Source: Eledone cirrhosa
Lineage: Eukaryota
Direction of reading: 5' to 3'
DNA length: 64,000 nucleotides
Assembly: GCA_964016885.1 (NCBI GenBank)
Contig: OZ024759.1
Location: 4,340,001-4,404,000 of the forward strand
The notes below the pieces were generated by a model that worked only from the letters and a program-made list of their open reading frames with translations, did not search any database and was not told where the DNA came from. The position numbers and the translations under genes are program-made. Every line of letters begins with the position of its first letter. Positions within the stretch are counted from its first letter, which is position 1. Shown here piece after piece: positions 22,330-55,108 of the stretch.

Positions 22330-22349
22330 GTATCTATATATATATATCA

Positions 22350-29648: not shown

Positions 29649-29786
29649 CTGACTGACAGTTGTCTCCCCTGAAACCAGCTGCACATCCAACACTAGAACA
29701 CACCCCAGATTTAATGTTGCAATGATCGTTGTCAGCACAGTAGCACAAATACTGACAGTTCAAGCCAAAATAACCCTTTTTACATT
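29649..29786 (-). CDS. EGF-like repeat exon 10 of 10 (138 bp, phase 1-1)
   Basis: tttcag|...|gtgggt; ECKKGYFGLNCQYLCYCADNDHCNIKSGVCSSVGCAAGFRGDNCQS. Confidence 0.9.
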
Positions 29787-29909
29787 CTGAAAAAAAAAAA
29801 AAAAGAAAATAGAATTATATACACAACATATATATAAAATTATACACAATAACACATATATACAATTATACACAGCTATAACATACATATACACAATTAT
29901 ACATAACTA

Positions 29910-30268
29910 TAATGCCAATGTGCGTGAATGACCAAGCATAGACGAGTTGAGAAAGAAACTGGGTATAAGAGGGATAAGTTGTGGTGTGTAGGAGAGAAGG
30001 CTGAGCTGAGATGGTATGGACATGTGATGCGCATGGAGGATGACCGCTGGGTAAAGAAGTGCCAAGAAATCCCAGTAGAAGGAAGACGCAGTAGAGGTAG
30101 ACCATGAAAAACATGGGCGGAGGTGGTGAGAGAAGACCTCAAATTGCTGAAACTCACGGAGGAGATGACAAGGGACCGTGACGAATGAAGAGATGCCATG
30201 CTTAATAAGACCTGTCCCACCCTTGCAAGCAGGGAAAAGCGGACGTAAAATGATGATGATGATGATAA
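29910..30268 (+). mobile_element. RTE-LINE 3' fragment with (GAT)n tail
   Basis: Degenerate LRKKLGIRGI...RWYGHVMRM...GRP coding tail, then ggacgtaaaatgatgatg. Confidence 0.8.
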
Positions 30269-30269
30269 T

Positions 30270-30745
30270 AATAAAATTATTGTGTACAGTGCTCAGGTGC
30301 ACTACAACTCATCAATGGTGAATGTATAGTACATTAGTGAACAGACAGTGAACAGTGTATGAGTCATGAGATACACACAGACACATGCATGCGTGTGTAT
30401 GGAGGGGGAATATCAGGTGTAGTGTTGGCGCAAAAAAAAAATAAAAGGAAATGCTTACAGCACCTAGGTTTCTCAAGTGGTTTCCCATCTAAGTACTAAC
30501 TAGGCTCGAGTCAAGATATATGTGTGTGTGTGTATGTATGTATGGAGGGGGAATATCAGGTGCAGGGTTGGCGAATTTCAGGCAACATGGAGGTTTTAAA
30601 GGATGCAGTGTCCCGGCAGCTAACAACTGATGCAGGTAGTTTGTTCCATGCTTCAGTGAATTTCAGGAAGCATGGAGGTTTTAAAGGATGCAGTGTCCTG
30701 GCAGCACACAACTGATGCGGGTAGTTTGTTCCATACTTCAGCAAA
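30270..30745 (-). mobile_element. CR1-like LINE 3' tail fragments
   Basis: EAWNKLPASVVSCRDTASFKTSM; the same family occurs at 36625-36895, 44455-44640 and 47750-50278. Confidence 0.75.
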
Positions 30746-30798
30746 TTTTTATATATATTGATTGACCAACAGTTAAAAAATATAAATATAAATATAGT

Positions 30799-30845
30799 TT
30801 CTCAGAGTTTTTTCATCACATATCTGTGACATCATCAGTGATATT
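30799..30845 (-). ncRNA. Degenerate minimal hammerhead-like motif
   Basis: tca-CTGATGA-tgtcac agatat gtgat-GAAA-aaac-TC-tga; stem III is not palindromic. Confidence 0.4.
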
Positions 30846-31309
30846 TCTATGCTTGTCATATTCCTGTGATGTTTTCTTATTCTATTTTATTTATTTGCAG
30901 TAGTTCCAACGTAAAAGACTTTCATAATAGTTGATCACTATAAATAACAGTTAGGAAAACCAGATAAAGTACATGTGGAGATAGAAAGAAGTAGACGGAG
31001 GGTCCTGTAAGGAACAGGTGCAAGTTTGCTTCCTTGCAAATACTTCTGTCTACATCTACCTTTCTCCTGAGATACTTTACTACCCACATTAACCTGTCAC
31101 CTGTGGTCCATTACTGTCTACCAGGAATAATAATTGTTTCTACTTTAGGCACAAGGTCAGAAATTATCCAAGTGTATTACTGGTACTTTATTTTATCGAC
31201 CCCGTAAGAATGAAAGGCAAAGTTAACTTCGGTGGGATTTGAACTCAGATTGTAAAGGGACATAACTATGCTGGAAAGCACGGCATCCGACTCTCTACCG
31301 ATACTGCCA

Positions 31310-32148
31310 TAATACAGTTATACTAGTTAGAAGTAGAAATAAAAGACTATTAAACATATGTAGTCATTAATAATATAGTTATACTAGTTAGTAGTAAAAG
31401 TAAAAGAGTAATACACCTATGTAGCCATTAATAATATAGTTATACTAGTTAGTAGTAAAAGTAAAAGAGTAATAAACCTATGTAGTCATTAATAATATAG
31501 TTATACTAGTTAGTAGTAAAAGTAAAAGAGTAATAAACCTATGTAGTCATTAATAATATAGTTATACTAGTTAGTAGTAAAAGTAAAAGAGTATTAAACA
31601 TATGTAGTCATTAATAATATAGTTATACTAGTTAGTAGTAAAAGTGAAAGAGTAATACACCTATGTAGTCATTAATAATATAGTTATACTAGTTAGTAGT
31701 AAAAGTAATAGAGTAATAAACCTATGTAGTCATTAATAATATAGTTATACTAGTTAGTAGTAAAAGTAAAAGAGTATTAAACATATGTAGTCATTAATAA
31801 TATAGTTATACTAGTTAGTAGTAAAAGTGAAAGAGTAATACACCTATGTAGTCATTAATAATTTAGTTATACTAGTTAGTAGTAAAAGTGAAAGAGTAAT
31901 ACACCTATGTAGCCATTAATAATATAGTTATACTAGTTAGTAGTAAAAGTAAAAGAGTAATAAACCTATGTAGACATTAATAATATAGTTATACTAGTTA
32001 GTAGTAAACGTAAAAGAGTAATAAACATATGTAGACATTAATAATATAGTTATACTAGTTAGTAGTAAAAATAAAAGAGTAATAAACATATGTAGACATT
32101 AATAATATAGTTATACTAGTTAGTAGTAAACGTAAAAGAGTATTAAAC
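31310..32148. repeat. 61-bp AT-rich minisatellite (~14 copies)
   Basis: Unit atactagttagtagtaaaagtaaaagagtaataaacctatgtagtcattaataatatagtt; abuts the donor site of exon 32153-32290. Confidence 0.93.
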
Positions 32149-32152
32149 CAAC

Positions 32153-32290
32153 CAGTTTGACAATCAGTTCCTATATAGCCTGGTTCACAGTTGCCCTCTT
32201 CACAAACACCATTGGTTCTGTTGCAGTATTTACTTTCTTCACAATGACAAACCTTTTGACAGTTAGACCCAAAAGTATTGCTTGGACAGA
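32153..32290 (-). CDS. EGF-like repeat exon 9 of 10
   Basis: atccag|...|gttggt; FCPSNTFGSNCQKVCHCEESKYCNRTNGVCEEGNCEPGYIGTDCQT. Confidence 0.9.
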
Positions 32291-32524
32291 CTGGATGAAA
32301 TAAAGGATCAAACAGAAATTTAGTAAATTTAACCCTTTAGCATTTACATTACTTTATATATATATACTATTGTATTTTTACAGTAAACACTTTATCACAT
32401 ATTATGGAGTCTAGGAGATTTTGATGATGATATTATTTATTTTGAGAAGAATACCTTAATGTCAGTATTGGTGACCGGTTATTGAAAGAAGTTAATATAT
32501 AACCCTTTAGCATTTACATTACTC

Positions 32525-35008
32525 ATAGACATTCAATGTAGAAGAGAACTGGGAGTTCCTAAAAAATAACTTACTAGAGGCGACGGATGAGGTCTGTGGC
32601 TGGAGTAAGACCTCAAGCAGGAGGAGAGTGACTTGGTGGTGGAACAATAAGGTATATGAGGCAGTTAAGGCCAAGAGACAGGCATGGAAAGAATGGAAGA
32701 ACGGGGGGAGCAGGGTAAATTACATAGAGAACAAGAGGGAAGCTAGGCGACAAGTATACTTAGCTAGGAGGGAAGCAGAGGATAGAAAATTCAAGCATGT
32801 TTTGCAATGTAAGGACCAGAAACAGGAGGTGTTCAAGATTGCGAGGCAGTGTGTCAGAGAGAATTGTGATGTCATTGGAGAGAAGTGTATCCGGAATGAT
32901 AAAGGTGAGCTTGCCCTCACAAGTGCTGAGAAGAAAGATGCATGGAAGAGTCATTATGATAGATTACTAAATGAGGAGAATGCATGAGAAGAAGAGACCC
33001 TACCCCAAGTAGACCCTATAGAGGGGCCAGCAGTACAAGTCAGCAGCAGCGTAGTAAGTAAGGCAATCAAAGATATGAAGATGGGGAAGGCAACCGGTCC
33101 ATCGGGTATAGCTGCTGAGATGCTGAAGGCATCTGGGTCTGTAGGTCACACTATAACCACACGTATTGTTAACCAGGTAATACTAGAAGGTGTCATACCA
33201 AAAGATTGGTGCAGTAGCATTATTGTCAACTGCTACAAAGGTAAAGGTGATGCACTAGATAGAGGAAACTATAGAGGTATAAAGCTGATGGACCAGGTCA
33301 TGAAAGTAACAGAAAGAGTTATAGCACAGTTGATTAGGGACCGGGTGAAACTAGATGAGATGCAATTTGGGTTTGTACCAGGAAGAGGCACCACTGATGC
33401 CCTCTTCCTTGTGAGGCAGTACAGGAAAAGTACCTAGCTAAAAGCAAGCCACTCTACCTGCCATTTGTCGATCTCGAGAAAGCCTTTGACAGAGTTCCAC
33501 GTGCTGTAATCTGATGGGCTCTTAGAAAACTAGGAGTAGATGAATGGCTTGTGAAAGCGGTACAAGCCATGTATAGGGGAGCAGTCAGCAAAGTTAGGAT
33601 TAGCAATGAGTATAGCGAGGAATTTAGCGTACAGGTTGGGGTCCACCAGGGCTCTGTTCTTAGCCCCCTCCTGTTCATCATAGTCATGCAGGCAATAACG
33701 GAGGAGTTTAAGACCGGATGCCCATGGGAACTCCTGTATGCTGATGACCTCGCACTTATAGCTGAATCTATGGTAGAGCTAGAGAAGAAATTCCAAACTT
33801 GGAAGCAGGGACTAGAAAGAAAGGGTCTCAAAGTCAACATGATAAAGACTCAGGTCCTTGTAAGTAGACGAGAAAACAGAACCCAGATCCCCTCAGGGAA
33901 ATGGCCTTGCTCAGTATGTAGGAAAGGTGTAGGTAGGAACTCCATTCCCTGCCCCAAATGCAAACAATGGGTACACAAGAGATGTAGCGGGATCTCAGGA
34001 AGCTTAATTAAGAATGTAGGCTTCACATGCAGCAGCTGTGCTGGGACAGCACGCAGCAAAAAGCCACAGGAAACAAGTACCACCAATCTCTCGGAGGGCT
34101 CTGTAGAAAGAGTAGACCGCTTCTGCTACCTAGGTGATCGAATTAGCAGCGGAGGTGGGTGTTCAGAAAGTACAATAACTAGGGTAAGAACGGGATGGAA
34201 GAAGCTTAGGGAACTACTACCACTGCTAGCTGCAAAAGGCTTTTCCCTCAAAATGAAAGGCAGACTGTATGATGCGTGTATCCGAACAGCAATGTTGCAT
34301 GGTAGTGAGACCTGGGCGCTGAAGGTGGAAGACTTATGTAGATTAGAGAGAAACGAAGCCTGCATGCTCCGATGGATGTGTAACAGTAATATACGCGAAC
34401 GACAAAGCATAAATGAATTGAGAGAGAGACTGAGCATAAGAGGAATCAAATGCTGTGTGCAGGAGAGGCAGTTGCGTTGGTATGGACATGTGATGCGTAT
34501 GAAGGATGACAGCTGCATAAAAAGGTGCAGAGCACTAGAAGTCGATGGAAACCGCGGAGTGGGGAGACCCAAGATGACCTGGGATGAGGTGATAAAAACC
34601 GACCTTACCCAATTCCACCTCTCAAAGGCGAAAACACATGACCGTGACCTCTGGCGTCTCGCAGAAATACAGAGTACCCGACCTCCCATGGGTACAAGCT
34701 GATGCATATAGACAATAAGCCCCCACACCCCCCACTTCAAGGTGGTCGTGGAGGTGCCACGGCAAAAAGCACCCAGCCCACACTGTAAAGTGGACGTGTA
34801 GGCAACACGAAAAAGCACCCAGTACTCACTGTAAATGAGGTTGGTGTTAGGAAGGGCATCCAGCTGTAGAAATCAAGCCAAATCAGTTCCTGTATGAGCA
34901 AAGCATAGTCAGCCGACCAGACACTGCCCACAACAGGACAACCCGTCTAACCCATGCTAGCGTGGAAGAACGGACGTAAAACGGTGATGATGATGATGAT
35001 GATGATGA
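32525..35008 (+). mobile_element. 5'-truncated RTE-type LINE (PHD-in-RT family) inserted into a piggyBac-like MITE
   Basis: ORFs 32628-32987, 33075-33437 and 33551-34702 are separated by stops or a frameshift. It has a (gat)n tail, with MITE halves at 32500-32524 and 35008-35212 and actc on both sides. Confidence 0.92.
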
Positions 35009-35469
35009 CTCTATATATACTATTGTATTTTCATGGTAAAGGCTTTACCTCACATAAGTATCTCATAATGTCGAATCTATGAGATTTTGATTTTATCTAT
35101 TTTGAGAAGAATACCTTAATGTCAGTATGAGTGGCCAGTTATGGCCGGTTTCAACAGAAAGAGGTGAGAGGATTCTGGTCAGATATGGCCGGTTTAAATG
35201 CTAAAGGGTTAAACACCCCAGTGTTGAAATGTGGTAGTGCTGGTGCCATGATAAAGTGCACCAAGCCTACACTGGAAAATGGAAGTGTTTGATGCTGTGA
35301 TAAAATGCATCCAGCCCATACTGTAAAGTGTTAGTGTGGTACCATGATAAAAGTAGCAAGACCACCCTGGCATGTGGTAAAGGTGGTGCCATGAGGAAAT
35401 GCACCCAGTACATGCTGTGAGGTAGTGTTAGGAAGGGCATCCAACAATAGAAACTATGCTAGAGAAACA

Positions 35470-36060
35470 CTGGCACACTTGGAAAATTAGAAGCACACAG
35501 GTACAGTGGGAACATCAGAGACACAGTGGGTACTCAAGAGGCACAATGGCTCACTGTGAACATCCAGAAGCACACTGGGATATTAGAGGCATACTGGCAT
35601 ACTGGGAACATTGGAGCACAGTGGGAACATCAGAGGCACACTGGAATATCAGTGGACACTAGGTACATAGGAGGCATACTGAGAACATCAGAGGCTCACT
35701 GGGCACATCAGAGACACACTGGGAATACAAGAGGCACACTGGGAACATCAGAAGCACAGTAGGCACATCCGAGGCACACTAGGTATATCAGAGACACACT
35801 GGGAACACAAGAGGCAGACTGGGAGCATCAGAGGCACAGTTGGCACATCAGAGGCACACTAGGTATATCAGAGACACACTGGGAACACAAGAGGCAGACT
35901 GGGAGCATCAGAGGCACAGTTGGCACATCAGAGGCACACTGAGCACATCAGAGACACACTGGGAATACAAGAGGCATACTGGGAACATCAGAAGCAGAGT
36001 AGGTACACAAGAGGCAGACTGGGAACATCAGAGGCACACAGGGCACATCAGGAGGCACGC
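35470..36060. repeat. ~20-bp minisatellite
   Basis: Unit gggaacatcagaggcacact and variants. Confidence 0.88.
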
Positions 36061-36103
36061 TGTTAATAAATGAACATTTACAGTTTAAAATAAGCATACT
36101 AAC

Positions 36104-36241
36104 AAGCTTGGCAGTCATGACCAGTAAAACCAGGTAGACACTTGTTGTTTGGACAGTGTCCAGTTTTAGGGTTACAGTTTGCACTGTCCTTGCATTTACA
36201 GGGATTTGAACAATGGACACCAAAATAACCAGCTTTACACA
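36104..36241 (-). CDS. EGF-like repeat exon 8 of 10
   Basis: taacag|...|gttagt; VCKAGYFGVHCSNPCKCKDSANCNPKTGHCPNNKCLPGFTGHDCQA. Confidence 0.9.
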
Positions 36242-36296
36242 CTGTTAAAATAAAACAAACAAGTAGAAATATCTAACATTACTTTACAAATATATA

Positions 36297-37364
36297 CAGG
36301 GTGCAGCATAAATACTGTTACAAAATATCAAATGAGTTTAAGTCATAATATTAATTACTTTATGCTTTGCAGCATAGAGTTACGGCCCTTTATGATCTGA
36401 GTTCAAATCCCGCCCAGATTAACTTTGCCTTTCATCCTTACTGGGTCGATAAAATAAAGTACCAGTCACACACAGGGAGCGCTTTAATAGACCCCCCCCC
36501 CCCACAAATTTCTGGCCTTATGCTTATATAAGAAACCAATAATAATTACTTTATTATTGATCTGATTGCTCAAATATTAACCTAATACTATATACTAACT
36601 GTTTTGGGGGTTATATAAGGATTCATTGCACATTTTTTCATGTTCAGAGTTGCTGAAGCATGGAACAAATTACCTGCATCAGTTGTTAGCTACTGGGACA
36701 CTACATCCTTTAAAACCTCCATGCTTCCTGAAATTCGCCAACACTACACCTGATATCCCCCTTCCATACACACGCATGCATGTGTGTGTATTTCATGACT
36801 CATACACTGTTCACTTTCCTGACCTTTATACATTATTCTATGTACTATATATGCACCTGAGCAGTGTACACAATAATTTCATTATTATTATTATTTAAAT
36901 GTCCTTAGAATTGAAAGGAAAATTCATAATTGGACAGCATGAAAAAAAGTAGACTCCACCTCAGATTTTTATAACTGGAAAACAGCTTGAAATTAACAGA
37001 ATGCTCATAAAAAGGACCATTGATCACTTCAAAGAAACTTCCTCAACAAAAGCCAAGATCAGGACGTCCTAGCACCTTCTGAACACTAAAACTAATCAAA
37101 TACATGCATGAGAAAATCAGATGTAAGCCAAAAAGATTCATGAGAAAAATGGTGAAAGAGGCCGAAATTTCAGAGAGATCCATGAGGAGGCTATGTAAAG
37201 ATGATCTCGAGATGTGAGAACAAAAGGAAAGCATATCAAATAAGATTTCATGGTGTTAATAAACATTTTATTAATTACATTGTGCCACAATTGTAGCTAG
37301 GTACAATAAATATTGAAGGAGTTATAAGCATTTTATTTTGTAACAGTATTTATGCCGTACTATG
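36297..37364 (+). mobile_element. Internally deleted Tc1/mariner-superfamily transposon with nested SINE and CR1 tail
   Basis: ~30-bp TIRs (gcataaatactgttacaaaata / tattttgtaacagtatttatgc) flanked by TA. A decayed HTH region at 36900-37215 reads RSGRPS...KIRCKPKRFMRKMVKEAEISERSMRRLCKDDL. Confidence 0.75.
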
Positions 37365-37464
37365 TAGTATTATGTGGTCAGAAACTCTCAAGAAAGTTGG
37401 ACAGGAGAAGGTCACCAGAGAAGAACCACCCTCTCACCTCATGCAAGGGTTTCAGCCATTAACC

Positions 37465-37727
37465 CAGGCATGGGCAACCTTTTTCGAGAAGCGGGCTGCA
37501 TGAGATATGGCTCATCATCAGGGAGGCCGCAAGCGCTAATTTACATTTGTGCCCACATTAAAAAAAAAGGGTGATAACTCAGGTTGTTTTGATTTGTTTC
37601 TTCAGAATTCGTACACGTTGTTTTCCTCAATCGTTAAAAATTATAGAAAGATAAATTACGACTGAAAAGTTGGGGTTTTAGGTGAGTCATTTAGAAAGCT
37701 TCGTGGGCCGCACGTTACCCATGACTG
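37465..37727. mobile_element. hAT-like MITE
   Basis: TIRs caggcatgggcaac / gttacccatgactg; 8-bp flanks cattaacc / ccttaatc (6/8 identical). Confidence 0.7.
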
Positions 37728-39199
37728 CCTTAATCTATTTAACATTTACATTACTGTGTTTAAGTGTGTGTGAGTGAGTGCATTTGTGTGTTTTAATGTG
37801 AGTGTGTTTGTGTGTTTTAGTGTGTGAGTACATTTGAGCATTTAAGAGTGTGAAAGAGTATGTGTGTGAGTGTGTTTGTGTGTTTTAGAGTGTGAGTGCA
37901 TGTGTGTGTTTATGTGTATGTGTGTGTGAACTCTTTTATTCACCTCTTACAATAGGAAAGGACACTGTGCCAGTTATTTTGTGTCTCAACTAATTGCAAC
38001 AAAGCTAATAAACTTTCATGCTCTATTTAACACTAACACAAGTGTAAATGGTGTTAAACTTACAATCATGTTCTGGGTTTCATTCTTGGACTGGGTTGTG
38101 TGTTATGTTCTTGAGCAAAACATTATACTCAGTATGTATGTATGGTCCTGTAACTCCTGACAGAGTCGTAGAGGTGCCGTATTAACAGACATCATTTCTT
38201 GGATATTTTAAGCCAGGCGGAGCCCATCCCTGTCCAGGCCTGAATACAGCAGATTTCTTCCAGAGAAAGATAGAAAGTGAGAGAGAGGAAATGAGAAAGA
38301 GATATAGAAGAAGAATCGACCCCAGTACTAGACTGGTACTTTTTTATTGACATCAAAAGGATGAAAGGCAAAGTTGACCTCAGCGGGATTTGAACTCAGA
38401 GAGCAGAGAGTCGGAACGAATACCACAAAGCATTCTATCTGATGTTCTAACGACTCTGCCAATTCACTGCCTATATACTCAGTATACTCAGTTGGAAATG
38501 AGTATCAACAATTGCTGGGGGGTTTTCTCTGCAATGGACTGGTGTCCTGTCCAGGTTGGAATTGTTTACTGTCAGTCACTTAACACCATGGAAACCAAGG
38601 TAAACCCTGGCCTGATTAGCATCCAGGCTTGAGACAGACTTTAGACTCAGAACAAGTAACAGCCAAATTATAGATTAGTATGATGAAAAGGAAAGGACAC
38701 ATTAAATAGTGTAGTCCTAGTTATGCAATGCCTGAGAGAAGGGTGGAATGTGCTTATCTCGGTTTCCATGGTGTGAAGCAACTGAGAGTACAGAATTCCA
38801 TCCTGCACAGGACACCTGTCCTGTGCAGGATGGAATTTAAAATCCCCCAGCAATTGCTGGTACTCATTTTCAACTGAGTATACTACGCAAGAATGTTTTG
38901 CTTAAGAACGCAATGCACAGCCAAGTCCAGGAATCAAACCCACAACATTATGATTGTAAATCCAACAGCTTTACCACTTGTGTTAGTGTTAGATAGAGAT
39001 GACAGTTCATTGATCTCATAACTAGTTTAAACTGTAAACAACTGACACAGTGTCCTTACATATTATAAAGAGGTGAATAAAAGATATTGAAAAAGATACT
39101 GTCAATTCACCAGCTTTTATTTTAATTTACAAATCTGCCCCCCCCCCCCCCCCCATAAAAAAAAGACACAATGGAAATTCGATATTTAGTTTTACTCAC

Positions 39200-39337
39200 C
39201 ATTTTGGCAGTTTCTTCCTTCAAAACCAGCAACACATCTTCCGTCAGAACATATTCCTGTCACTGAGTCACATTTGTTGCTGCCTACACAGTGACATATA
39301 CCTTCACAGTTGCTGCCAAATCTACCATTCTGGCAGA
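39200..39337 (-). CDS. EGF-like repeat exon 7 of 10
   Basis: tgaaag|...|gtgagt; VCQNGRFGSNCEGICHCVGSNKCDSVTGICSDGRCVAGFEGRNCQN. Confidence 0.9.
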
Positions 39338-39624
39338 CTTTCAAAGAAACAAAAACATTGTTTGTTAATAAAAAAAAAAGCAAACCCTTTTTGGTTCAGA
39401 AACTTCTGGCGGAATCCCAAAGTCTCATATTTTTATATGGTTTGAATATAAATATACTTCTCTACCTTTTTTTCATGGAACCCCAGACATTCCTTTGCAG
39501 AACCCTTGGGTTCCATGGATCCCACTTTGGGAATGACTAATAAAGAACAACCTAAAGTTTTGAGAGATAAAACAAGAATTCATATATGTTGCACAGAGTA
39601 ATTAGCTTCTTTCATTTCACTCAC

Positions 39625-39762
39625 CTGTTTGACAGTTGTTACCTTTATAGCCAGGTGTACACCCACCACTCGAACAGGTGCCAGATTTAGGGTTACACGT
39701 GCTATTGTCATAGCAGTGACAGCTATAGCTACAATCTTTACCAAACTTGCCACTGGAGCACT
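39625..39762 (-). CDS. EGF-like repeat exon 6 of 10
   Basis: tttcag|...|gtgagt; ECSSGKFGKDCSYSCHCYDNSTCNPKSGTCSSGGCTPGYKGNNCQT. Confidence 0.92.
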
Positions 39763-41354: not shown

Positions 41355-41492
41355 CTGTCTGACAATTGCTACCTTGATAGCCAGCTTCACAGCCACCACT
41401 GGAACATACACCTGTGATGGGGTCACACTTGCTGTTGTTGGCACGGTGACATAAGTTAATACAGTTGTCACCAAATTTACCACTTCTACACT
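41355..41492 (-). CDS. EGF-like repeat exon 5 of 10 (one Cys replaced by Arg)
   Basis: acccag|...|gtgagt; ECRSGKFGDNCINLCHRANNSKCDPITGVCSSGGCEAGYQGSNCQT. Confidence 0.88.
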
Positions 41493-41519
41493 CTGGGTAC
41501 ATTAAATATGAAGAATATA

Positions 41520-42888: not shown

Positions 42889-42919
<31 letters not shown>

Positions 42920-43890: not shown

Positions 43891-43945
43891 ATGATGATGA
43901 TAATAACAATGATGATATTTATGATGATGATAGTACACCACTTAC

Positions 43946-44083
43946 CTGTCTGACAGTTGCCACCTTCATATCCAGGAGCACATCCTCCATTAGAGCAGCT
44001 ACCAGTCTGTGGCTTACATTTACTCTTGTCAGCACAATGACACATGTTTCGACAGTTTGGTCCAAATTTTCCTCTCTTACATC
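43946..44083 (-). CDS. EGF-like repeat exon 4 of 10
   Basis: ttgtag|...|gtaagt; GCKRGKFGPNCRNMCHCADKSKCKPQTGSCSNGGCAPGYEGGNCQT. Confidence 0.92.
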
Positions 44084-45446
44084 CTACAAATCAATCAATA
44101 ACAAATATATATTTTGGTGTGTATTTGTGTGGCCTTGTGGTAAGGGTGTTGGACTTACAATCATAATGTCGTGAGTTCTATTCCTCAACTAGGTTGTGTG
44201 TTGTGTTCTTGAGCAAAAGTATTTCCATTCATGTTGCTCCAGTATAATAATAATTGTTTCTACTTTTGACACAAGGCCAGCAATTACCCAGTACATTACT
44301 GGTACTTTATTTTATCGACCCCGTAAGGATGAAAGGCAAAGTTAACCTTGGTGGGATTTGAACTCGGATCATAAAGGGACGTAACTCTATGCTTCAAAGC
44401 ATGGCGTCCGACTCTCTACCAATACTGACAATCCACCGCTCCAGTATAATAATAATAATAGTGAAATTATTGTGTACAGTGCTCAGGTGCACTATAACTC
44501 ATCAAAGGTGCATGTAAAGCACATAGAATAATGAACAAATGTCAGGAAAATGAACAGTGTATGAGTCATGATAAACATATGTACGTGTGTATGGAGGAGG
44601 GATATCAGGTGTAGTGTTGGCGAATTTCAGGAAGCTTGGAGATCAGTGCCAGTAATAGCTGGTGATTTAACCTTGGGATGGACTGGTGCCCTGTCCAGGG
44701 GAAGTTTTGTATTTTAAGTCACTTCATGCCATAGATAGCACTGGCCTGATGACCCTCAGCACTCGAGACACACTTTAGACATTTTTTTGTTTTTGTATAT
44801 TCAACAGCCCAGTCCTTCTAACTGTCGGTAGGTATCACACTGAGCAGAGTCCACTGTATTCCCCACACCTGGACAGGATGCTAGTCCATTGCATGGTATT
44901 TCACTGCTATATTATTCTATCTACTCCAAAAGTATGACAGAAAAAGTTGATTTTGGTGGGATTTGAATACCGTTTTAAAAAAGAACTCAAAATCACAACC
45001 CATTAAAACCTTTAGAATTTAAACCGGCCACAATTCTCTCACTTCTTTATGTTCAAACCAGCCATAACTGGCTGCTCATACTTATGTTAAGGTATTGTTC
45101 TCAAAATAAATAATATCAAAATCTCATAGATTTGATATTATGTGAGATAATTATATGAGATAAAGCCTTTACTGTGAAAATATAATAGTGTATATGAAGT
45201 AGTGTAAATGCTAAAGGGTTAATCTGTAACTCTACTGCCCCTGCTACTCACATCTTCCTCATGATGAACATTTAACATTCACTTCCCCTGTAACCAAGAG
45301 TGGGATGTGTCAACAGAGACCGACTCAGAACTTAATCGGAGCTACTGACCTCTCAGATGTTACTGGATACATTTCATCATGACTGAAGAGGACATTCATC
45401 CATTTGTCTGGTAGATTTTCTAAAGAAATAGAACTACAAAAGAGCA

Positions 45447-47262
45447 CACACGTGTCTGACAGGTGCTACCTTATAACCAGGACCACACCATCTACTGTAA
45501 CACACCTGTCTGACAGATGATACCTTATAACCAGGACCACACCATCTACTGTAACACACCTGTCTGACAGGTGCTACCTTATAACCAGGACTACACTATC
45601 TACTGTAACACACTTGTCTGATAGATGATACCTTATAACCAGGACAACACCATCTACTGTAACACACCTGTCTGACAGGTGCTACCTTATAACCAGGATC
45701 ACACCATCTACTGTAACACACCTGTCTGACAGCTGCTACCTTATAACCAGGACCACACCTTCTACTGTAACACACCTGTCTGATAGATGATACCTTATAA
45801 CCAGGACCACACCATCTACTGTAACACACCTGTCTGACAGCTGCTACCTTATAACCAGGACTACACTATCTACTGTAACACACTTGTCTGATAGATGATA
45901 CCTTATAACCAGGACCACACCATCTACTGTAACACACCTGTCTGACAGCTGCTACCTTATAACCAGGACCACACCATCTACTGTAACACAACTGTCTGAC
46001 AGGTACTACCATATAACCAGGACCACACCATCTACTGTAACACACCTGTCTGACAGCTGCTACCTTATAACCAGGACCACACCATCTACTGTAACACAAC
46101 TGTCTGACAGGTGCTACCTTATAACCAGGACCACAACATCTACTGTAACACACCTGTCTGACAGGTGCTACCTTATAACCAGGATCACACCATCTACTGT
46201 AACACACCTGTCTGACAGCTGCTACCATATAACCAGGACCACACCATCTACTGTAACACACCTGTCTGACAGGTGCTACATTATAACCAGGACCACACCA
46301 TCTACTGTAACACACGTGTCTGACAGGTGCTACCTTATAACCAGGACCACACCATCTACTGTAACACACCTGTCTGACAGGTGCTACTTTATAACCAGGA
46401 CCACACCATCTACTGTAACACACCTGTCTGACAGCTGCTACCTTATAACCAGGACCACACCATCTACTGTAACACACCTGTCTGACAGGTGCTACCTTAT
46501 AACCAGGACTTCACCATCTACTGTAACACACCTGTCTGACAGGTGCTACCTTATAACCAGGACCACACCATCTACTGTAACACACCTGTCTGATAGATGA
46601 TACCTTATAACCAGGATCACACCATCTACTGTAACACACGTGTCTGACAGGTGCTACCTTATAACCAGGACCACACCATCTACTGTAACACACCTGTCTG
46701 ACAGGTGCTACCTTATAACCAGGACCACACCATCTACTGTAACACACCTGTCTGACAGGTGCTACCTTATAACCAGGACTTCACCATCTACTGTAACACA
46801 CCTGTCTGACAGGTGCTACTTTATAACCAGGACCACACCATCTACTGTAACACACCTGTCTGACAGCTGCTACCTTATAACCAGGACCACACCATCTACT
46901 GTAACACACCTGTCTGACAGGTGCTACCTTATAACCAGGACTTCACCATCTACTGTAACATACCTGTCTGACAGGTGCTACCTTATAACCAGGACCACAC
47001 CATCTACTGTAACACACCTGTCTGATAGATGATACCTTATAACCAGGATCACACCATCTACTGTAACACACGTGTCTGACAGCTGCTACCTTATAACCAG
47101 GACCACACCATCTACTGTAACACACCTGTCTGACAGGTGCTACCTTATAACCAGGACTTCACCATCTACTGTAACACACTTGTCTGACAGGTGCTACCTT
47201 ATAACCAGGCCACACCATGTACTGTAACACACCTGTCTGATAGATGATACCTTATAACCAGG
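45447..47262. repeat. 54-bp minisatellite (~33 copies) derived from the 3' half of an EGF exon
   Basis: Unit cacacctgtctgacaggtgctaccttataaccaggaccacaccatctactgtaa; its reverse complement aligns to the exon segment encoding TGVCSSGGCAAGYEGSNCQ. Confidence 0.92.
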
Positions 47263-47351
47263 AACACACCTTCCACTGGAACACACACCTGTCTCTGTCT
47301 TACACCTACTATCATCTTGACTAAATATATTAAGTAGCAAACAAAGCTTAC

Positions 47352-47489
47352 CTGTCTGACAGTTGCTACTTTCATAACCAGCAGTACATCCTCCTCTAGA
47401 ACACACACCTGTCTGTTTGTTACATTTACTGTTGTCAACACAGTGACATGTGTTGCCACAGTTGGCTCCAAATTTTCCATTTCTACAGA
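47352..47489 (-). CDS. EGF-like repeat exon 3 of 10
   Basis: ccacag|...|gtaagc; VCRNGKFGANCGNTCHCVDNSKCNKQTGVCSRGGCTAGYESSNCQT. Confidence 0.92.
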
Positions 47490-47749
47490 CTGTGGAAATA
47501 AAAATATGAGAACAATGACAATAACAACAACATATAACACTATACAAGATAATGCTTTCTGATTTAGGCACAAGGCCAGCAATTTTAGGGGAGGAGAAAA
47601 TCAATTAAATCGACCCCAGTGTGTGACTGGTACTTCATTTTATCAACCCTGTTGGGATGAAAGGGATAGCTACCACAATTCTATCATCTATATTATAGCG
47701 TTGTCATCTATACTATATCTATATCATCTGAACTATATTTGTATCATCT

Positions 47750-50278
47750 TAATTTCCATGTTTCTAACACCCATGGATATGCCTACAAAGTCAGAAAACA
47801 GCACAGCTCCCATGACTTTCGGAAACATTTTTTCAAGCTCCGAGTTGCTGAAGCATGGAACAAACTACCTGCATCAGTTGTTAGCTGTCGAGACACTACA
47901 TCCTTTAAAACCTCCATGGAACAAACTACCTGCATCAGTTGTTAGCTGTCGAGACACTACATCCTTTAAAACCTCCATGGAACAAACTACTTGGATCAGT
48001 TGTTCGCTGTCGAGACACTACATCCTTTAAAACCTCCATGGAACAAACTACCTGCATCAGTTGTTAGCTGTCGAGACACTGCATCCTTTAAAACCTCCAT
48101 GGAACAAACTACCTGCATCAGTTGTTAGCTGTCGAGACAGTACATCCTCTAAAACCTCCATGGAACAAACTACCTGCATCAGTTGTTAGCTGTCGAGACA
48201 CATCCTTTAAAACCTCCATGGAACAAACTACCTGCATCAGTTGTTAGCTGTCTAGACACTACATCCTTTAAAACCTCCATGGAACAAACTACCTGCATCA
48301 GTTGTTAGCTGTCGAGACACTACATCCTTTAAAACCTCCATGGAACAAACTACCTGCATCAGTTGTTAGCTGTCGAGACACTACATCCTTTAAAACCTCC
48401 ATGGAACAAACTACCTGCATCAGTTGTTAGCTGTCGAGACACTCCATCCTTTAAAACCTCCATGGAACAAACTACCTGCATCAGTTGTTAGCTGTCGAGA
48501 CACTGCATCCTTTAAAACCTCCATGGAACAAACTACCTGCATCAGTTGTTAGCTGTCGAGACACTACATCCTTTAAAACCTCCATGGAACAAACTACCTG
48601 CATCAGTTGTTAGCTGTCGAGACACTACATCCTTTAAAACCTCCATGGAACAAACTACTTGCATCAGTTGTTAGCTGTTGAGACACTACATCCTTTAAAA
48701 CCTCCATGGAACAAACTACCTGCATCAGTTGTTAGCTGTCGAGACACATCCTTTAAAACCTCCATGGAACAAACTACTTGCATCAGTTGTTAGCTGTCGA
48801 GACACTACATCCTTTAAAACCTCCATGGAACAAACTACCTGCATTAGTTGTTAGCTGTCGAGACACTATATCCTTTAAAACCTCCATGGAACAAACTACC
48901 TGCATCAGTTGTTAGCTGTCGAGACACTGCATCCTTTAAAACCTCCATGGAACAAACTACCTGCATCAGTTGTTAGCTGTCGAGACACATCCTTTAAAAC
49001 CTCCATGGAACAAACTACTTGCATCAGTTGTTAGCTGTCGAGACACTACATCCTTTAAAACCTCCATGGAACAAACTACCTGCATTAGTTGTTAGCTGTC
49101 GAGACACTACATCCTTTAAAACCTCCATGGAAGAAACTACCTGCATCAGTTGTTAGCTGTCGAAATACTACATCCTTTAAAACCTCCATGGAACAAACTA
49201 CTTGCATCAGTTGTTAGCTGTCGAGACACTACATCCTTTAAAACCTCCATGGAACAAACTACCTGCATTAGTTGTTAGCTGTCGAGACACTACATCCTTT
49301 AAAACCTCCATGGAACAAACTACCTGCATCAGTTGTTAGCTGTCGAGACACTACATCCTTTAAAACCTCCATGGAACAAACTACCTGCATCAGTTGTTAG
49401 CTGTCGAGATACATCCTTTAAAACCTCCATGGAACAAACTACTTGCATCAGTTGTTAGCTGTTGAGACACTACATCCTTTAAAACCTCCATGGAACAAAC
49501 TACCTGCATCAGTTGTTAGCTGTCGAAACACTACATCCTTTAAAACCTCCATGGAACAAACTACTTGCATCAGTTGTTAGCTGTTGAGACACTACATCCT
49601 TTAAAACCTCCATGGAACAAACTACTTGCATCAGTTGTTAGCTGTCGAGACACTACATCCTTTAAAACCTCCATGGAACAAACTTCCTGCATCAGTTGTT
49701 AGCTGCCGAGACACTGCATCCTTTAAAACCTCCATGGAACAAACTCCCTGAATCAGTTGTTAGCTGTCGAGACACATCCTTTAAAACCTCCATGGAACAA
49801 ACTCCCTGCATCAGTTGTTAGCTGTCGAGACACTACATCCTTTACAACCTCCATGGAACAAACTCCCTGCATCAGTTGTTAGCTGTCGAGACACTACATC
49901 CTTTACAACCTCCATGGAACAAACTACCTGCATCAGTTGTTAGCTGTCGAGACACATCCTTTACAACCTCCATGGAACAAACTACCTGCATCAGTTGTTA
50001 GCTGTCGAGACACTACATCCTTTACAACCTCCATGGAACAAACTCCCTGCATCAGTTGTTAGCTGTCGAGACACTACATCCTTTAAAACCTCTATGCTTC
50101 CTGAGATTCGTCAACGCTGCACCTGATGTCCCCCCCTTCCATACACACGCACACATGTATTTCATGACTCATACACTGTTCCTTTTCTTGACATTTAAAC
50201 ATTATTCTATGTACTATACATGCACCTTTGATGAGTTGTAGTGCACCTGAGCATTGTACACAATAATTTCATTATTAT
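47750..50278 (+). mobile_element. CR1-like LINE 3' end internally expanded by a satellite
   Basis: HGYAYKVRKQHSSHDFRKHFFKLRVAEAWNKLPASVV (CR1 ORF2 C-terminus-like) precedes the array. The normal 3' UTR and (att)n tail follow it, matching 36720-36895. Confidence 0.8.
47854..50092. repeat. 61-bp minisatellite (~37 copies, some 58-bp variants)
   Basis: Unit catggaacaaactacctgcatcagttgttagctgtcgagacactacatcctttaaaacctc. Confidence 0.95.
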
Positions 50279-50454
50279 ATTATTTTATACTCCAGTGGTA
50301 TGACCTAAACTATATATAATCCATACTATATCTATACAATCTATATGATTTCCGTAACATCGATATTATGTCTATATACTTGCCGATTCTCTACACTCCA
50401 TACCAATGTTATACTATATATTCATGTGGCTATGATATCCCCTTTATATTGTAA

Positions 50455-50790
50455 GCACATAGCTTAGTAGTTAGAGCATTGGCCTTGCAATCGAAAGGTT
50501 GTGAGTTCAATTCTCAGACCGGGTGATGTGTTGTTTCCTTGAGCAGGACACTTTATTTCACATTGCTCCAGTTTACTCAGTTGTAGAAATGTGATGATAG
50601 GGACTGGAGTCCATTACATTCCACTGCAAAGTGGTCCTGGAGGTGCCACGGCAAAAAACACCCAATATTCACTGTAAATGAGGTTGGTGTTAGGAGGGGC
50701 ATCCAGCTGTAGAAATCAAGCCAGAATCAGTTTCCGTCCCACCCTTGTAAGCAGGGAAAAGCAGACGTAAAATGATGATGATGATGATTG
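50455..50790 (+). mobile_element. Composite SINE with RTE-derived tail
   Basis: Reverse-complement match to 27735-28072. Confidence 0.82.
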
Positions 50791-50814
50791 TAACTCCAAA
50801 ACAGTTTAAATCTA

Positions 50815-50925
50815 CCTGTCTCACAGGTGTTACCTTCATAACCAGCACTACACCCTCCACTAAAACACACACCTGTCTCTGTGTTACACCTAGCTGTGTG
50901 TTACACCTATTGTCATCTTGACTCA
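50815..50925 (-). pseudogene. Partial (3'-half) copy of an EGF exon
   Basis: gatgacaataggtgtaac...acaggtgtgtgttttagtggagggtgtagtgctggttatgaaggtaacacctgtgagacag|gt, with a short internal duplication. A sister half-exon lies at ~47240-47325. Confidence 0.75.
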
Positions 50926-50965
50926 ATATATCATGTTAGAAACAAAGCTATACTACACCACTTAC

Positions 50966-51103
50966 CTGTCTGACAGTTGCTACCTTCAGAACCAGCAGTA
51001 CATCCTCCACTAGAACACACACCTGTCTGTTTGTTACACCTGTTATTATCAGCACAGTGGCATGTGTGTTTACAGTTAGCTCCAAATTTACCAATGTCAC
51101 AGG
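50966..51103 (-). CDS. EGF-like repeat exon 2 of 10
   Basis: ttacag|...|gtaagt; ACDIGKFGANCKHTCHCADNNRCNKQTGVCSSGGCTAGSEGSNCQT. Confidence 0.92.
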
Positions 51104-51382
51104 CTGTAATATGAAATGTAATGTAAACAGTTTGAACAATTTCAAGATATAATATTTACAATTATTAACCTTTTTGATATCAAAATACCTGACACCGATT
51201 AACTGTTTTACTCTATATATTTATCTAAAAACTTCCCACTATAGTGTTATGTAAGAACTTTTGTTAGGTTATGTTCCATCCAAAATATTAGTGATGAAAA
51301 TCTCAGTTATATAACTATAGCCCTTCAAATTCTTCATTATATAAAAATTTGTTTAAAATCGTATGCAATATATTTCTTTAGT

Positions 51383-54300
51383 AATATGGTAATGAAAGGA
51401 TTAATGACATAGACAGTGTCTTTAAGTAGAAATATGGTAATGAAATGGTTAATGATATAGACAGTGTCTTTAAGTAGAGATATGGTAATGAAGGGATTAA
51501 TGACATAGACAGTGTCTTTAAGTAGAGATATGTAATGAAAGGTTTAATGACATAGACAGTGTCTTTAAGTAGAAATATGGTAATGAAAGGGTTAATGATA
51601 TAGACAGTGTCTTTAAGTAGAAATATGTAACGAAAGGATTAATGACATAGACAGTGTCTTTAAGTAGAGATATGTAATGAAAGGGTTAATGACATAGACA
51701 GTGTCTTTAAGTAGAGATATGGTAATGAAAGGGTTAATGACATAGACAGTGTCTTTAAGTAGAAATATGGTAATGAAAGGGTTAATGATATAGGTAGTGT
51801 CTTTAAGTAGAAATATGGTAATGAAAGGTTTAATGACATAGACGGTGTATTTAAGTAGAGATATGTAATGAAAGGTTTAATGACATAGACAGTGTCTTTA
51901 AGTAGAGATATGTAATGAAAGGATTAATGACATAGACGGTGTCTTTAAGTAGAGATATGTAATGAAAGGGTTAATGACATAGACAGTGTCTTTAAGTAGA
52001 AATATGTAATGAAAGGATTAATGACATAGACGGTGTCTTTAAGTAGAGATATGTAATGAAAGGGTTAATGACATAGACAGTGTCTTTAAGTAGAAATATG
52101 GTAATGAAAGGGTTAATGACATAGACAGTGTCTTTAAGTAGAGATATGTAATGAAAGGGTTAATGACATAGACAGTGTCTTTAAGTAGAAATATGGCAAT
52201 GAAAGGGTTAATGACATAGACAGTGTCTTTAAGTAGAGATATGTAATGAAAGGGTTAATGACATAGACAGTGTCTTTAAGTAGAAATATGGTAATGAAAG
52301 GGTTAATGACATAGACAGTGTCTTTAAGTAGAGATATGTAATGAAAGGTTTAATGACATAGACAGTGTCTTTAAGTAGAGATATGTAATGAAAGTTTTAA
52401 TGACATGTCTTTAAGTAGAAATATGGTAATGAAAGAGTTAATGACATAGACAGTGTCTTTCATTAGAAATATGGTAATGAAAGGGTTAATGATATAGACA
52501 GTGTCTTTCATTAGAAATATGGTAATGAAAGGGTTAATGATATAGACAGTGTCTTTCATTAGAAATATGGTAATGAAGGGGTTAATGACATAGACTGTGT
52601 CTTTCATTAGAAATATGGTAATTAAAGGGTTAATGACATAGACAGTGTCTTTCATTAGAAATATGGTAATGAAAGGGTTAATCACATAGACGGTGTCTTT
52701 AAGTAGAGATATGTAATGAAAGGGTTAATGATATAGACAGTGTCTTTAAGTAGAGATATGTAATGAAAGGGTTAATGATATAGACAGTGTCTTTAAGTAG
52801 AGATATGGTAATGAAAGGGTTAATGACATAGACAGTGTCTTTAAGTAGAGATATGTAATGAAAGGATTAATGACATAGACGGTGTCTTTAAGTAGAGATA
52901 TGTAATGAAAGGGTTAATGATATAGACAGTGTCTTTAAGTAGAGATATGGTAATGAAAGGGTTAATGACATAGACAGTGTCTTTAAGTAGAGATATGTAA
53001 TGAAAGGGTTAATGACATAGACAGTGTCTTTAAGTAGAAATATGGTAATGAAAGGGTTAATGACATAGACAGTGTCTTTAAGTAGAGATATGTAATGAAA
53101 GGGTTAATGATATAGACAGTGTCTTTAAGTAGAAATATGGTAATGAAAGGGTTAATGACATAGACAGTGTCTTTAAGTAGAGATATGTAATGAAAGTTTT
53201 AATGACATGTCTTTAAGTAGAAATATGGTAATGAAAGAGTTAATGACATAGACAGTGTCTTTCATTAGAAATATGGTAATGAAAGGGTTAATGATATAGA
53301 CAGTGTCTTTCATTAGAAATATGGTAATGAAAGGGGTAATGACATAGACAGTGTCTTTAAGTAGAAATATGGTAATGAAAGGATTAATGACATAGACAGT
53401 GTCTTTCATTAGAAATATGGTAATGAAAGATTATATGATATAGACAGTGTCTTTAAGTAGAGATATGGTAATGAAAGGATTAATGACATAGACAGTGTCT
53501 TTAAGTAGAAACTTGGTAATGAAAAGTTTAATGACATAGAGTCTATGTCATTAAGCCTTAATCCAAATATTCAATTACTTTCAATCAAGAAACAAATGCA
53601 AATATCCGACTAACTTGAATTTTCCCTCGGATTTTAAAATTATTTTACGTATTTTTTCTATATTAGTTTTTTGAACTTAATATTATTATTTTTCTATTGT
53701 ATTTCTTTATAATTATGTGAAGGCAAAAATATTTTATATTGTAACTTTTTATGTTAAATAATAAATGACTATAAAACTATACAAATTTTATATACTATAT
53801 ATTATAATAATTTCACAAAAGTCGCATTTATAGGTATATCAACTTATGCGGCCTCCTTTATTACTGCCTAATTTAAATGTGGCCTCTAATGGTAAAAAGG
53901 TTCCTCTCCTCTGACATAGACAGTGTCTTTCATTAGAAATATGGTAATGAAAGGGTTAATGACATAGACAGTGTCTTTAAGTAGAGATATGTAATGAAAG
54001 GGTTAATGATATAGACAGTGTCTTTAAGTAGAAATATGGTAATGAAAGGGTTAATGACATAGACAGTGTCTTTAAGTAGAGATATGTAATGAAAGTTTTA
54101 ATGACATGTCTTTAAGTAGAAATATGGTAATGAAAGAGTTAATGACATAGACAGTGTCTTTCATTAGAAATATGGTAATGAAAGGGTTAATGATATAGAC
54201 AGTGTCTTTCATTAGAAATATGGTAATGAAAGGGGTAATGACATACACAGTGTCTTTAAGTAGAAATATGGTAATGAAAGGATTAATGACATAGACAGTG

Positions 54301-54955
54301 TCTTTCATTAGAAATATGGTAATGAAAGATTAAATGATATAGACAGTGTCTTTAAGTAGAGATATGGTAATGAAAGGATTAATGACATAGACAGTGTCTT
54401 TAAGTAGAAACTTGGTAATGAAAAGTTTAATGACATAGAGTCTATGTCATTAAACCTTAATCCAAATATTCAATTACTTTCAAGCAAGAAACAAATGCAA
54501 ATATCCGACTAACTTGAATTTTCCCTCGGATTTTAAAATTATTTTACGTATTTTTTCTATATTAGTTTTTTGAACTTAATATTATTATTTTTCTATTGTA
54601 TTTCTTTATAATTATGTGAAGGCAAAAATATTTTATATTGTAACTTTTTATGTTAAATAATAAATGACTATAAAACTATACAAATTTTATATACTATATA
54701 TTATAATAATTTCACAAAAGTCGCATTTATAGGTATATCAACTTATGCGGCCTCCTTTATTACTGCCTAATTTAAATGTGGCCTCTAAAGGTAAAAAGGT
54801 TCCTCTCCTCTGACATAGACAGTGTCTTTCATTAGAAATATGGTAATGAAAGGGTTAATGACATAGACAGTGTCTTTCATTAGAAATATGGTAATGAAAG
54901 GGTTAATGACATAGACAGTGTCTTTTATTAGAAATGTGGTAATGAAAGGGTTAAT
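51383..54955. repeat. 47/48-bp minisatellite, interrupted twice by a duplicated ~370-bp insert
   Basis: Unit aatatggtaatgaaagggttaatgacatagacagtgtctttaagtaga. Inserts at ~53545-53913 and ~54444-54812 belong to an 899-bp tandem duplication. Confidence 0.93.
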
Positions 54956-54970
54956 TACTACACCATATAC

Positions 54971-55108
54971 CTGTCTGACAGTTGCTACCTTCATAACCAG
55001 CAGCACATCCTCCACTAGAACACACACCTGTCTGTTTGTTACATTTACTGTTGTCAGCACAGTGACATGTGTTGCCACAGTTGGCTCCAAATTTACCTGA
55101 TTTACAGA
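54971..55108 (-). CDS. EGF-like repeat exon 1 of 10 (most upstream found)
   Basis: ttccag|...|gtatat; xCKSGKFGANCGNTCHCADNSKCNKQTGVCSSGGCAAGYEGSNCQT. Confidence 0.9.

What the first reader, a model, noticed from the sequence alone, without database searches (positions are those of the whole stretch)
29649..55108. Hidden array of ten exactly 138-bp symmetric EGF exons: a cassette-like receptor ectodomain still expanding
Seen: every exon is 138 bp and phase 1-1 with identical Cys spacing but variable inter-Cys residues, so any subset can be skipped or duplicated in frame. The upstream exons are very similar to each other. Exons 1 and 3 also share acceptor-side intron sequence, and exons 1, 2 and 4 share donor-side tacacca. 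Downstream exons are more diverged, giving a polarised age gradient. Known: MEGF10/Draper/CED-1 and SCARF proteins are engulfment or scavenger receptors with such repeats. Inference: a diversifying recognition receptor with combinatorial splicing and exon-number polymorphism.
Basis: partly seen in the sequence, partly recalled or inferred. Interest (0 to 1): 0.75.

Follow-up and report, generated by a model that had tools for sequence, protein, structure and literature searches.

The report
Truncated, 30-fold amplified EGF receptor fragment
The ten exons are real, but they are the middle piece of a giant EGF-repeat receptor gene that lies whole on another chromosome and was recently copied about 30 times without its ends, and these copies are likely decaying pseudogenes rather than a receptor diversified by splicing.

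Summary
Confirmed: ten 138-bp phase 1-1 EGF exons on the minus strand (exon 5 has lost a Cys). They are not a gene of their own. The same exons occur at 29-34 places in this genome, 14 of them in tandem on C20. All derive from one intact source gene on C22: 63 modelled exons, 2,989 aa open, 50 exons of 138 bp, an F5/8C lectin-like domain, one transmembrane exon and a tail with five YxxM motifs. Every copy lacks the source's first EGF exon and transmembrane exon, both single-copy. Copies lie 1.1-1.4% from the source, differ in exon number, carry Cys losses, frameshifts and splice-site losses, and vary neutrally (36 non-synonymous or stop to 8 synonymous, pN/pS 1.11). The source's exons are under purifying selection (dN/dS 0.30-0.41). 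One RNA-like run shows spliced exons 9-10 with alleles of the window's clade. Verdict: a young, transcribed, probably non-functional amplicon of a molluscan MEGF/lectin receptor. Exon-number change is real; combinatorial diversification is unsupported.

The parts
54971..55108 (-). EGF exon 1; counterpart of the identical source exons at C22:1700390 and 1703355
50966..51103 (-). EGF exon 2
50816..50891 (-). intronic half-exon copy (3' half of an EGF exon, 88% to exon 2)
47352..47489 (-). EGF exon 3
45446..47310 (-). 54-bp minisatellite (34.1 units) made of degenerate 3' halves of an EGF exon, 78-83% to exon 1; its 15-base marker occurs once in the source and 5-62 times in the 12 copies where the interval was found
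43946..44083 (-). EGF exon 4; the 21 source exons that follow it (C22:1707418-1732699) are missing from this copy
41355..41492 (-). EGF exon 5, Cys16 to Arg (7 Cys), a change shared by 10 of 29 sequences
39625..39762 (-). EGF exon 6
39200..39337 (-). EGF exon 7
36104..36241 (-). EGF exon 8; 29 DNA matches in the genome
32153..32290 (-). EGF exon 9; an X3 contig covers exactly this exon with foreign letters on both sides
29649..29786 (-). EGF exon 10, last exon of the captured fragment; carries two alleles found together in 7 C20 copies only
28500..29507 (.). 3' end of homology to the source gene: unique alignment stops at C22:1744719, then a (TG)n(TA)n run and a palindromic repeat; source DNA from 1745500 on is absent from the copies tested
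1..25400 (.). spacer of the tandem unit, not from the source gene, repeated in neighbouring units at about 95-100% identity; holds a Helitron (16624-20451, with stops)
55246..61837 (.). 31-bp satellite (55246-58771), then an exon-less duplicate of intron 4-5 (58772-61837); start of the roughly 53-kb gap, mostly tandem repeat, that separates exon 1 from this unit's 5' exons at C20:4448042-4468130

Best explanation
The ten exons are part of a fragment of a giant EGF-repeat receptor gene on C22 that was copied without its first exons and transmembrane exon to about 30 places in this genome, and the copies are likely transcribed pseudogenes drifting neutrally. Shown: source-copy relationship, missing ends, shared 3' end, copy number in the assembly, disablements, neutral pattern of variation. 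Inferred: one founding duplication, likely by recombination between repeats (a gypsy-type LTR element at the 5' edge, microsatellite plus palindromic repeat at the 3' edge), fused about 75 kb of the gene to a foreign 35-40 kb spacer; unequal crossing-over then spread the 100-130 kb unit in tandem and between chromosomes, while phase 1-1 symmetry let exon blocks drop out or double without shifting the frame. The intact source likely works like PEAR1: an F5/8C (galactose-binding-like) domain on a stalk of about 55 EGF modules binds glycans, clustering would lead to phosphorylation of five YxxM motifs and recruitment of PI3K. Its central exon block likely expands by unequal crossing-over and changes stalk length rather than binding specificity.
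For: Copy counts: exon 8 29 matches, 26 at 100% over 158 bp; exon 10 34 matches at 97% or more (40 of 138 candidates scored); F5/8C exon 27 matches. Source model: 63 exons, 62 of 62 acceptors AG, 63 of 63 donors GT, 2,989 aa, 0 stops; 45 exons inside the amplified interval, 3 upstream, 15 downstream; 50 of 50 138-bp exons have 8 Cys. First EGF exon, TM exon and whole YxxM exon each found once, on C22. Homology runs C22:1669018-1744719 in the C20 units; 6 of 6 further exon-10 copies on C18, C19, C26, C27 stop at the same place. All 28 copies are 1.1-1.4% from the source and 0.72% from each other on average. Variants segregating among copies: 36 non-synonymous or stop, 8 synonymous, pN/pS 1.11; P=0.005 under dN/dS 0.41, P=0.49 under neutrality. 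Disablements: Cys loss in exon 5 (10 of 29), exon 9 (3 of 26), source exon 33 (11 of 11 copies), first captured EGF exon (2 of 5); 4-bp deletion in source exon 4 (3 of 3); donor loss in the second F5/8C exon (2 of 4); acceptor loss (2 of 3); half-deleted exon 8 (2 of 29); one stop, one frameshift. Tail motifs YDEM, YEVM x3, YGVM. PEAR1 signals through YxxM and PI3K (PMC12557594, passage read).
Against: The copies are young, so selection has had little time and 44 variants give modest power: dN/dS near 0.5 is only weakly rejected (P=0.02), and pN/pS near 1 can also be a mix of constraint and positive selection. The window's own ten exons have no stop or frameshift and all splice sites intact. 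Transcripts of the window's clade appear spliced in X3, which neutral decay does not require. Broken phase 1-1 exons can be skipped in frame, so disablements need not kill a product. The source's signal-peptide exon is a candidate picked by a hydrophobicity scan that also gives chance hits, its last exon was not found, and its ligand and signalling are untested.
Confidence: 0.7

Rival explanations
1. Some truncated copies make a useful product, a soluble lectin-EGF decoy or an intracellular inhibitor of the source receptor, in the manner of NOTCH2NL, or a regulatory RNA, and the amplification is selected.
For: About 30 copies from one founder on 7 contigs besides C22; spliced RNA-like contigs with alleles of 7 C20 copies; the F5/8C exons are kept at full length in the 5 units examined; exon 10's contig ends exactly at the donor, with only a minority contig (depth 35 against 137) running into the intron, so another exon likely follows. 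Only two of four NOTCH2NL proteins have a predicted signal peptide (PMC6092419, passage read).
Against: No source start codon or signal exon; the first in-frame Met lies inside the F5/8C domain with no hydrophobic leader; neutral variation with repeated Cys losses; the clade seen in X3 is the one carrying the exon-5 Cys loss; the one signal-like stretch in the spacer is within chance (1 non-microsatellite hit in 42 kb against several in 104 kb upstream of the source).
Confidence: 0.17
2. One reading: this locus is itself a membrane recognition receptor diversified by combinatorial exon choice, in the manner of Dscam.
For: All exons are symmetric and interchangeable in frame; exon number and order differ between copies; related snail genes sit in a parasite-resistance locus with EGF-domain loss (PMC12297450, passages read).
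Against: No TM exon in any copy; source exons are homogenised (several 100% identical pairs) and under purifying selection; the one junction resolved joins consecutive exons.
Confidence: 0.05
3. Most copies are assembly artefacts (false duplications or retained haplotypes) of a few real loci.
For: Some copies are identical over 4.2 kb; C16 is an 810-kb unplaced contig with three copies; the region is rich in satellites; the window's 5' junction runs through low-complexity DNA.
Against: Copies form supported clades with shared and private substitutions, deletions and satellite lengths; neighbouring units differ in exon content; no N gaps in 464 kb of C20; single contigs of three DNA-like runs over non-repeat parts of the unit have depth 470-880 (no single-copy baseline was laid, so this is weak).
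Confidence: 0.08

Closest known systems
Molluscan MEGF/galactose-binding-domain receptors and receptor tyrosine phosphatases (Biomphalaria sudanica SudRes1, PMC12297450; Octopus sinensis protein P0001)
   Same: F5/8C (galactose-binding-like) domain, long run of 8-Cys EGF modules, single TM; paralogous copies that differ in EGF number. P0001 is the top hit (E 1.7e-146) and matches the source gene's N-terminal order.
   Different: No phosphatase domain found at the source; a five-YxxM tail instead; about 55 EGF modules; the amplified copies lack both ends.
PEAR1 / MEGF10 / Draper / CED-1 / SCARF1
   Same: Same EGF module (SCARF1 structure 8hna, E 6.4e-11; PEAR1, Draper and SCARF1 among hits); PEAR1 signals through YxxM and PI3K (PMC12557594).
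   Different: N-terminal F5/8C domain rather than the EMI domain (EMI as a family feature is recalled); five YxxM against one in PEAR1; 46-residue module with a 3-residue longer loop than SCARF1.
NOTCH2NL and other truncated genes in primate segmental duplications (PMC6092419)
   Same: Recent segmental duplicates of an EGF-repeat receptor that keep EGF repeats, lose TM and tail, and are transcribed.
   Different: NOTCH2NL keeps the N-terminal region and has shown function; here the 5' end is lost as well, there are about 30 copies, and variation looks neutral.
Dscam-type exon cassettes (recalled)
   Same: Tandem symmetric exons of equal length.
   Different: No sign of alternative use or of diversifying selection; exons appear to be read in series.

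Membership tests
Molluscan MEGF/GBD receptor (RPTP type) | extracellular galactose-binding-like F5/8C domain | tested here: met
   First half-domain exon hits PF22633 at E 1.2e-4 (below the whole-domain cut-off); tblastn to P0001, P0007, P0121. In the source and 26 copies, outside the window.
Molluscan MEGF/GBD receptor (RPTP type) | multiple MEGF-type EGF repeats | tested here: met
Molluscan MEGF/GBD receptor (RPTP type) | single transmembrane segment | tested here: not met
   Not met for the window's copy: the TM exon is single-copy at C22:1788775-1788847. Met for the source gene.
Molluscan MEGF/GBD receptor (RPTP type) | intracellular tyrosine phosphatase domain | tested here: not met
   No PF00102 match near any copy or the source (113 candidates scored); none by tblastn in 130 kb behind the TM exon. 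The source's last exon is not found.
MEGF10/Draper/CED-1/PEAR1 | N-terminal EMI domain (recalled) | tested here: inconclusive
   Two N-terminal source exons have no Pfam hit at E 0.1; the first Cys-rich exon was not scanned; an F5/8C domain is present instead.
MEGF10/Draper/CED-1/PEAR1 | cytoplasmic tyrosine motifs (NPxY, ITAM-like or YxxM) | tested here: met
   Source only: five YxxM in a predicted exon; no NPxY in the two tail exons found. Absent from the copies.
Dscam-like combinatorial exon cassette | alternative or mutually exclusive exon use | tested here: inconclusive
   Only contigs of one RNA-like run; exon 9 to 10 consecutive; rare isoforms are dropped from contigs.
Dscam-like combinatorial exon cassette | diversified, positively selected variable exons | tested here: not met
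   dN/dS 0.41 (24 young exons) and 0.30 (26 old exons) without Cys codons; several identical exon pairs.
Duplicated (unprocessed) pseudogene in a segmental duplication | long intron-containing copy above 90% identity | tested here: met
Duplicated (unprocessed) pseudogene in a segmental duplication | missing ends, disablements, neutral variation | tested here: met
   the window's own ten exons show only the Cys loss
Duplicated (unprocessed) pseudogene in a segmental duplication | no functional product | not testable with these tools
   needs full-length cDNA, proteomics or knock-down
NOTCH2NL-like functional truncated paralog | retains the source's N-terminus or signal peptide | tested here: not met
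   three upstream source exons lie outside the amplified interval

The most novel reading that the evidence does not exclude
An octopod counterpart of a primate core duplicon: a chimeric lectin-EGF ectodomain cassette amplified about 30-fold under a foreign promoter, whose C20 tandem units are read through in frame from exon 10 of one unit into the first captured exon of the next (both phase 1), giving variable-length EGF/lectin polymers that act as decoys or inhibitors of the single PI3K-coupled source receptor.
Probability: 0.12. Interest if true: 0.8.

Novelty: new member of a known kind. Interest (0 to 1): 0.42.

Why it matters
It corrects the reading of the window: an apparent cassette receptor is a fragment of an amplicon, and automatic annotation would count about 30 false MEGF10-like genes here, a caution for reports of MEGF family expansion in molluscs. 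Two things remain of interest. The source gene is an unusually long receptor (about 3,000 aa, 50 identical-length EGF exons, five PI3K-type motifs) of a family tied to parasite resistance in snails. The amplicon is a young, single-origin, transcribed, interchromosomal segmental duplication, in which exon gain and loss can be followed across some 30 natural replicates and birth of a truncated paralog can be tested directly.

Tried and rejected
No RNA holder was listed as such. One search's joint and loose-end tables were swamped by repeats, so no exon skipping could be read from them. A phosphatase tail was sought and not found. Two exon-like stretches in the spacer (window 13600-13990 and 1300-1470) were considered as terminal or first exons; both are widespread repeats (778 and 1901 candidates) and were left unassigned. 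A signal-like stretch antisense to the gypsy element was judged chance. The idea that the Helitron carries the whole unit was set aside: it sits inside the spacer between its own flanking repeats, has stops, and does not mark the gene breakpoints. A search for orthologues with the F5/8C exon gave one unnamed protein (1 of 23 candidates), so exon counts across species were not obtained. The source's stop-codon exon was not found. First scans used patterns that were too strict; off-by-one exon edges were corrected. Paper searches found no description of this amplicon; earlier scan notes were empty.
Full report
Observation. The ten exons are there as described: minus strand, 138 bp, AG/GT, phase 1-1, open when joined. 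Twelve of 45 columns are invariant. Exon 5 has Arg for one Cys. Shared flanks of exons 1/3 and 1/2/4 are confirmed. Each exon scores weakly to EGF families (10 of 10 to PF24887, 6 of 10 to laminin EGF, none above cut-off for exon 1) and the profile matches SCARF1 (8hna, E 6.4e-11). The top database hit is an Octopus sinensis protein with F5/8C, EGF repeats and a phosphatase domain; that the genome is an octopod is inferred from this.

The window is one unit of an amplicon. The window is G000:C20:4340001-4404000. Exon 8 DNA has 29 matches, 14 of them on C20 between 3.55 and 5.20 Mb, the rest on C16, C19, C22, C23 and C27. Exon 10 has 34 matches at 97% or more, adding C18 and C26 (40 of 138 candidates scored, so a lower bound). 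The F5/8C exon has 27. Neighbouring C20 units align over gene and spacer at about 95-100%.

The source gene. Only the C22 copy continues on both sides. My model there has 63 exons, 62 of 62 acceptors AG, 63 of 63 donors GT, 2,989 aa without a stop: a candidate signal exon, a first Cys-rich exon, two exons without Pfam hit, an EGF exon, two F5/8C exons, a short EGF exon, 50 EGF exons of 138 bp plus two longer ones, a TM exon and two tail exons. The second tail exon carries YDEM, YEVM three times and YGVM. The model is predicted from DNA only; the signal exon is a candidate and the last exon is not found. No phosphatase domain lies near it.

What was copied. Homology of the C20 units to C22 runs from 1669018 to 1744719, holding 45 of the 63 exons; 3 lie upstream and 15 downstream. 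The first Cys-rich exon and the TM exon are found once in the genome, and the YxxM exon once whole plus one partial copy. The 5' edge lies where source and copy share an LTR-like stretch next to a gypsy-type element. The 3' edge lies between 1744719 and 1745500, in a microsatellite and palindromic repeat, and unique alignment stops at the same base in 6 of 6 further copies tested. All 28 exon-8 copies are 1.1-1.4% from the source over about 4.2 kb (2.5 kb for two) and 0.72% from each other on average. A single founding event is inferred. The window's copy also lacks a block of 21 source exons between its exons 4 and 5, and is cut off from its own 5' exons by about 53 kb; the 43 kb of that gap examined are 74% tandem repeat. 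In that 5' part the exon order differs from the source and one F5/8C donor is lost.

Exon number and age. Whole units hold 12, 13 and 18 pattern-matching 138-bp exons against 50 in the source (broken exons are missed by the pattern). In the source the young exons (nearest neighbour 90-100%, 24 of 50) form a central block, most densely at exons 14-31 where introns are mostly 250-600 bp, with diverged exons on both sides. The polar gradient in the window is a slice of this.

Selection. Source exons: dN/dS 0.41 (young) and 0.30 (old) without Cys codons; 50 of 50 have 8 Cys; 0 of 36 amino-acid-changing variants among young exons touch a Cys (pairwise counts, not independent). Copies: in exons 3-10, 15 non-synonymous or stop against 3 synonymous variants (exons not 138 bp or not fully covered were dropped, and exon-10-only copies were not included); in 13 further unique exons, 21 against 5 (1-11 copies each; two changes in one codon were counted apart). 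Pooled pN/pS is 1.11; P=0.005 under 0.41, 0.02 under 0.5, 0.49 under neutrality. Disablements are listed under the best explanation. Against this reading, the window's ten exons themselves have no stop, frameshift or splice loss, and the excess of Cys changes in exons 3-10 of the copies is not significant alone (2 of 14 against 0 of 36, P=0.07).

Expression. No run is on record as RNA. X3 is inferred to be RNA: a 282-base contig matches exactly exon 9 with 115 and 29 foreign letters on its sides, and a 139-base contig ends exactly at the donor of exon 10; their lengths fit a 30-base overlap across an exon 9-10 junction (the joint itself was not among the 15 of 25 rows shown). In one search its exon contigs had depth 112-137 and most listed intron contigs 2-7. 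The exon-10 contig differs from the source at two sites and carries the alleles found together in exactly 7 C20 copies, the window among them. At exon 7 X3 has the common allele, not the window's, so the window's own copy is not shown to be expressed. X3 is one run from another sample than the DNA-like runs, so alleles may be distributed differently in that animal. What follows exon 10 in most transcripts is unknown.

How it works. For the window's locus: most likely a passenger fragment that is transcribed in some copies from a foreign promoter and decays. Without the source's start and leader, the first in-frame Met lies inside the F5/8C domain, and disulfide-rich modules would not be expected to fold in the cytosol (general knowledge). 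For the source: a lectin-like head on a long stalk, signalling like PEAR1, whose single YxxM is cross-linked by the tandem SH2 domains of PI3K (PMC12557594, two passages read); this is inference from architecture. Near-identical young exons point to change in length, not in specificity.

Comparison with what is known. MEGF plus galactose-binding-domain receptors are described in snails, with divergent paralogous copies and EGF-domain loss in a schistosome-resistance region (PMC12297450, 12 passages read; supplements not seen). Truncated EGF-repeat paralogs from segmental duplication are known in NOTCH2NL (PMC6092419, 12 passages read). Other papers were seen as search listings only; none of those searches showed this amplicon. 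Dscam and the EMI domain are recalled, from no call. Orthologues in other species could not be obtained, which leaves exon number across species open.

Verdict. Observation confirmed; interpretation partly supported. New member of known kinds (MEGF/lectin receptor; truncated segmental duplicate). Interest 0.42; a functional decoy family remains possible at about 0.12-0.17.

Noticed in passing
window 45446-47310: A coding half-exon has become a 54-bp minisatellite; one marker hit in the source, 5-62 in copies, so it expanded after the duplication.
   Followed up: partly
window 16624-20451 (-): Helitron Rep plus PIF1 helicase frames broken by stops, present in the spacer of neighbouring units.
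   Followed up: partly
window about 2755-3750 (+): C2H2 zinc-finger-like exon with two intact-looking fingers then degenerate ones, read by eye from the sequence; the spacer may come from a zinc-finger cluster.
   Followed up: no
window 58772-61837: Exon-less duplicate of intron 4-5 (16-bp satellite plus GGT repeat) that stops about 20 bp short of exon 5; rearrangement or misjoin.
   Followed up: partly
window 25463-26851 and 33351-34702 (+); 22300-25300 (-): LINE-type reverse transcriptase elements; the first has RVT_1 and PHD hits; the second lies in intron 8-9 and is shared with the source.
   Followed up: no
window 47854-50096, 51379-54955, 31309-32149, 55246-58771: Large intronic minisatellites of 61, 48, 61 and 31 bp.
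   Followed up: no
L036:803-1125 (C22:1790803-1791125): The tail exon has itself grown by an 11-residue tandem repeat that multiplies the YxxM motif; a 140-bp partial copy lies at C22:10452097.
   Followed up: partly
L033:1361-1543 (C22:1761361-1761543): A source EGF exon with an in-frame glycine-rich insertion from a GGT microsatellite, 183 bp instead of 138.
   Followed up: no
G000:C22:17643413, C14:9149860-9164507, C10:12086702: Intronless tyrosine phosphatase domains inside long open frames, three in tandem on C14.
   Followed up: no
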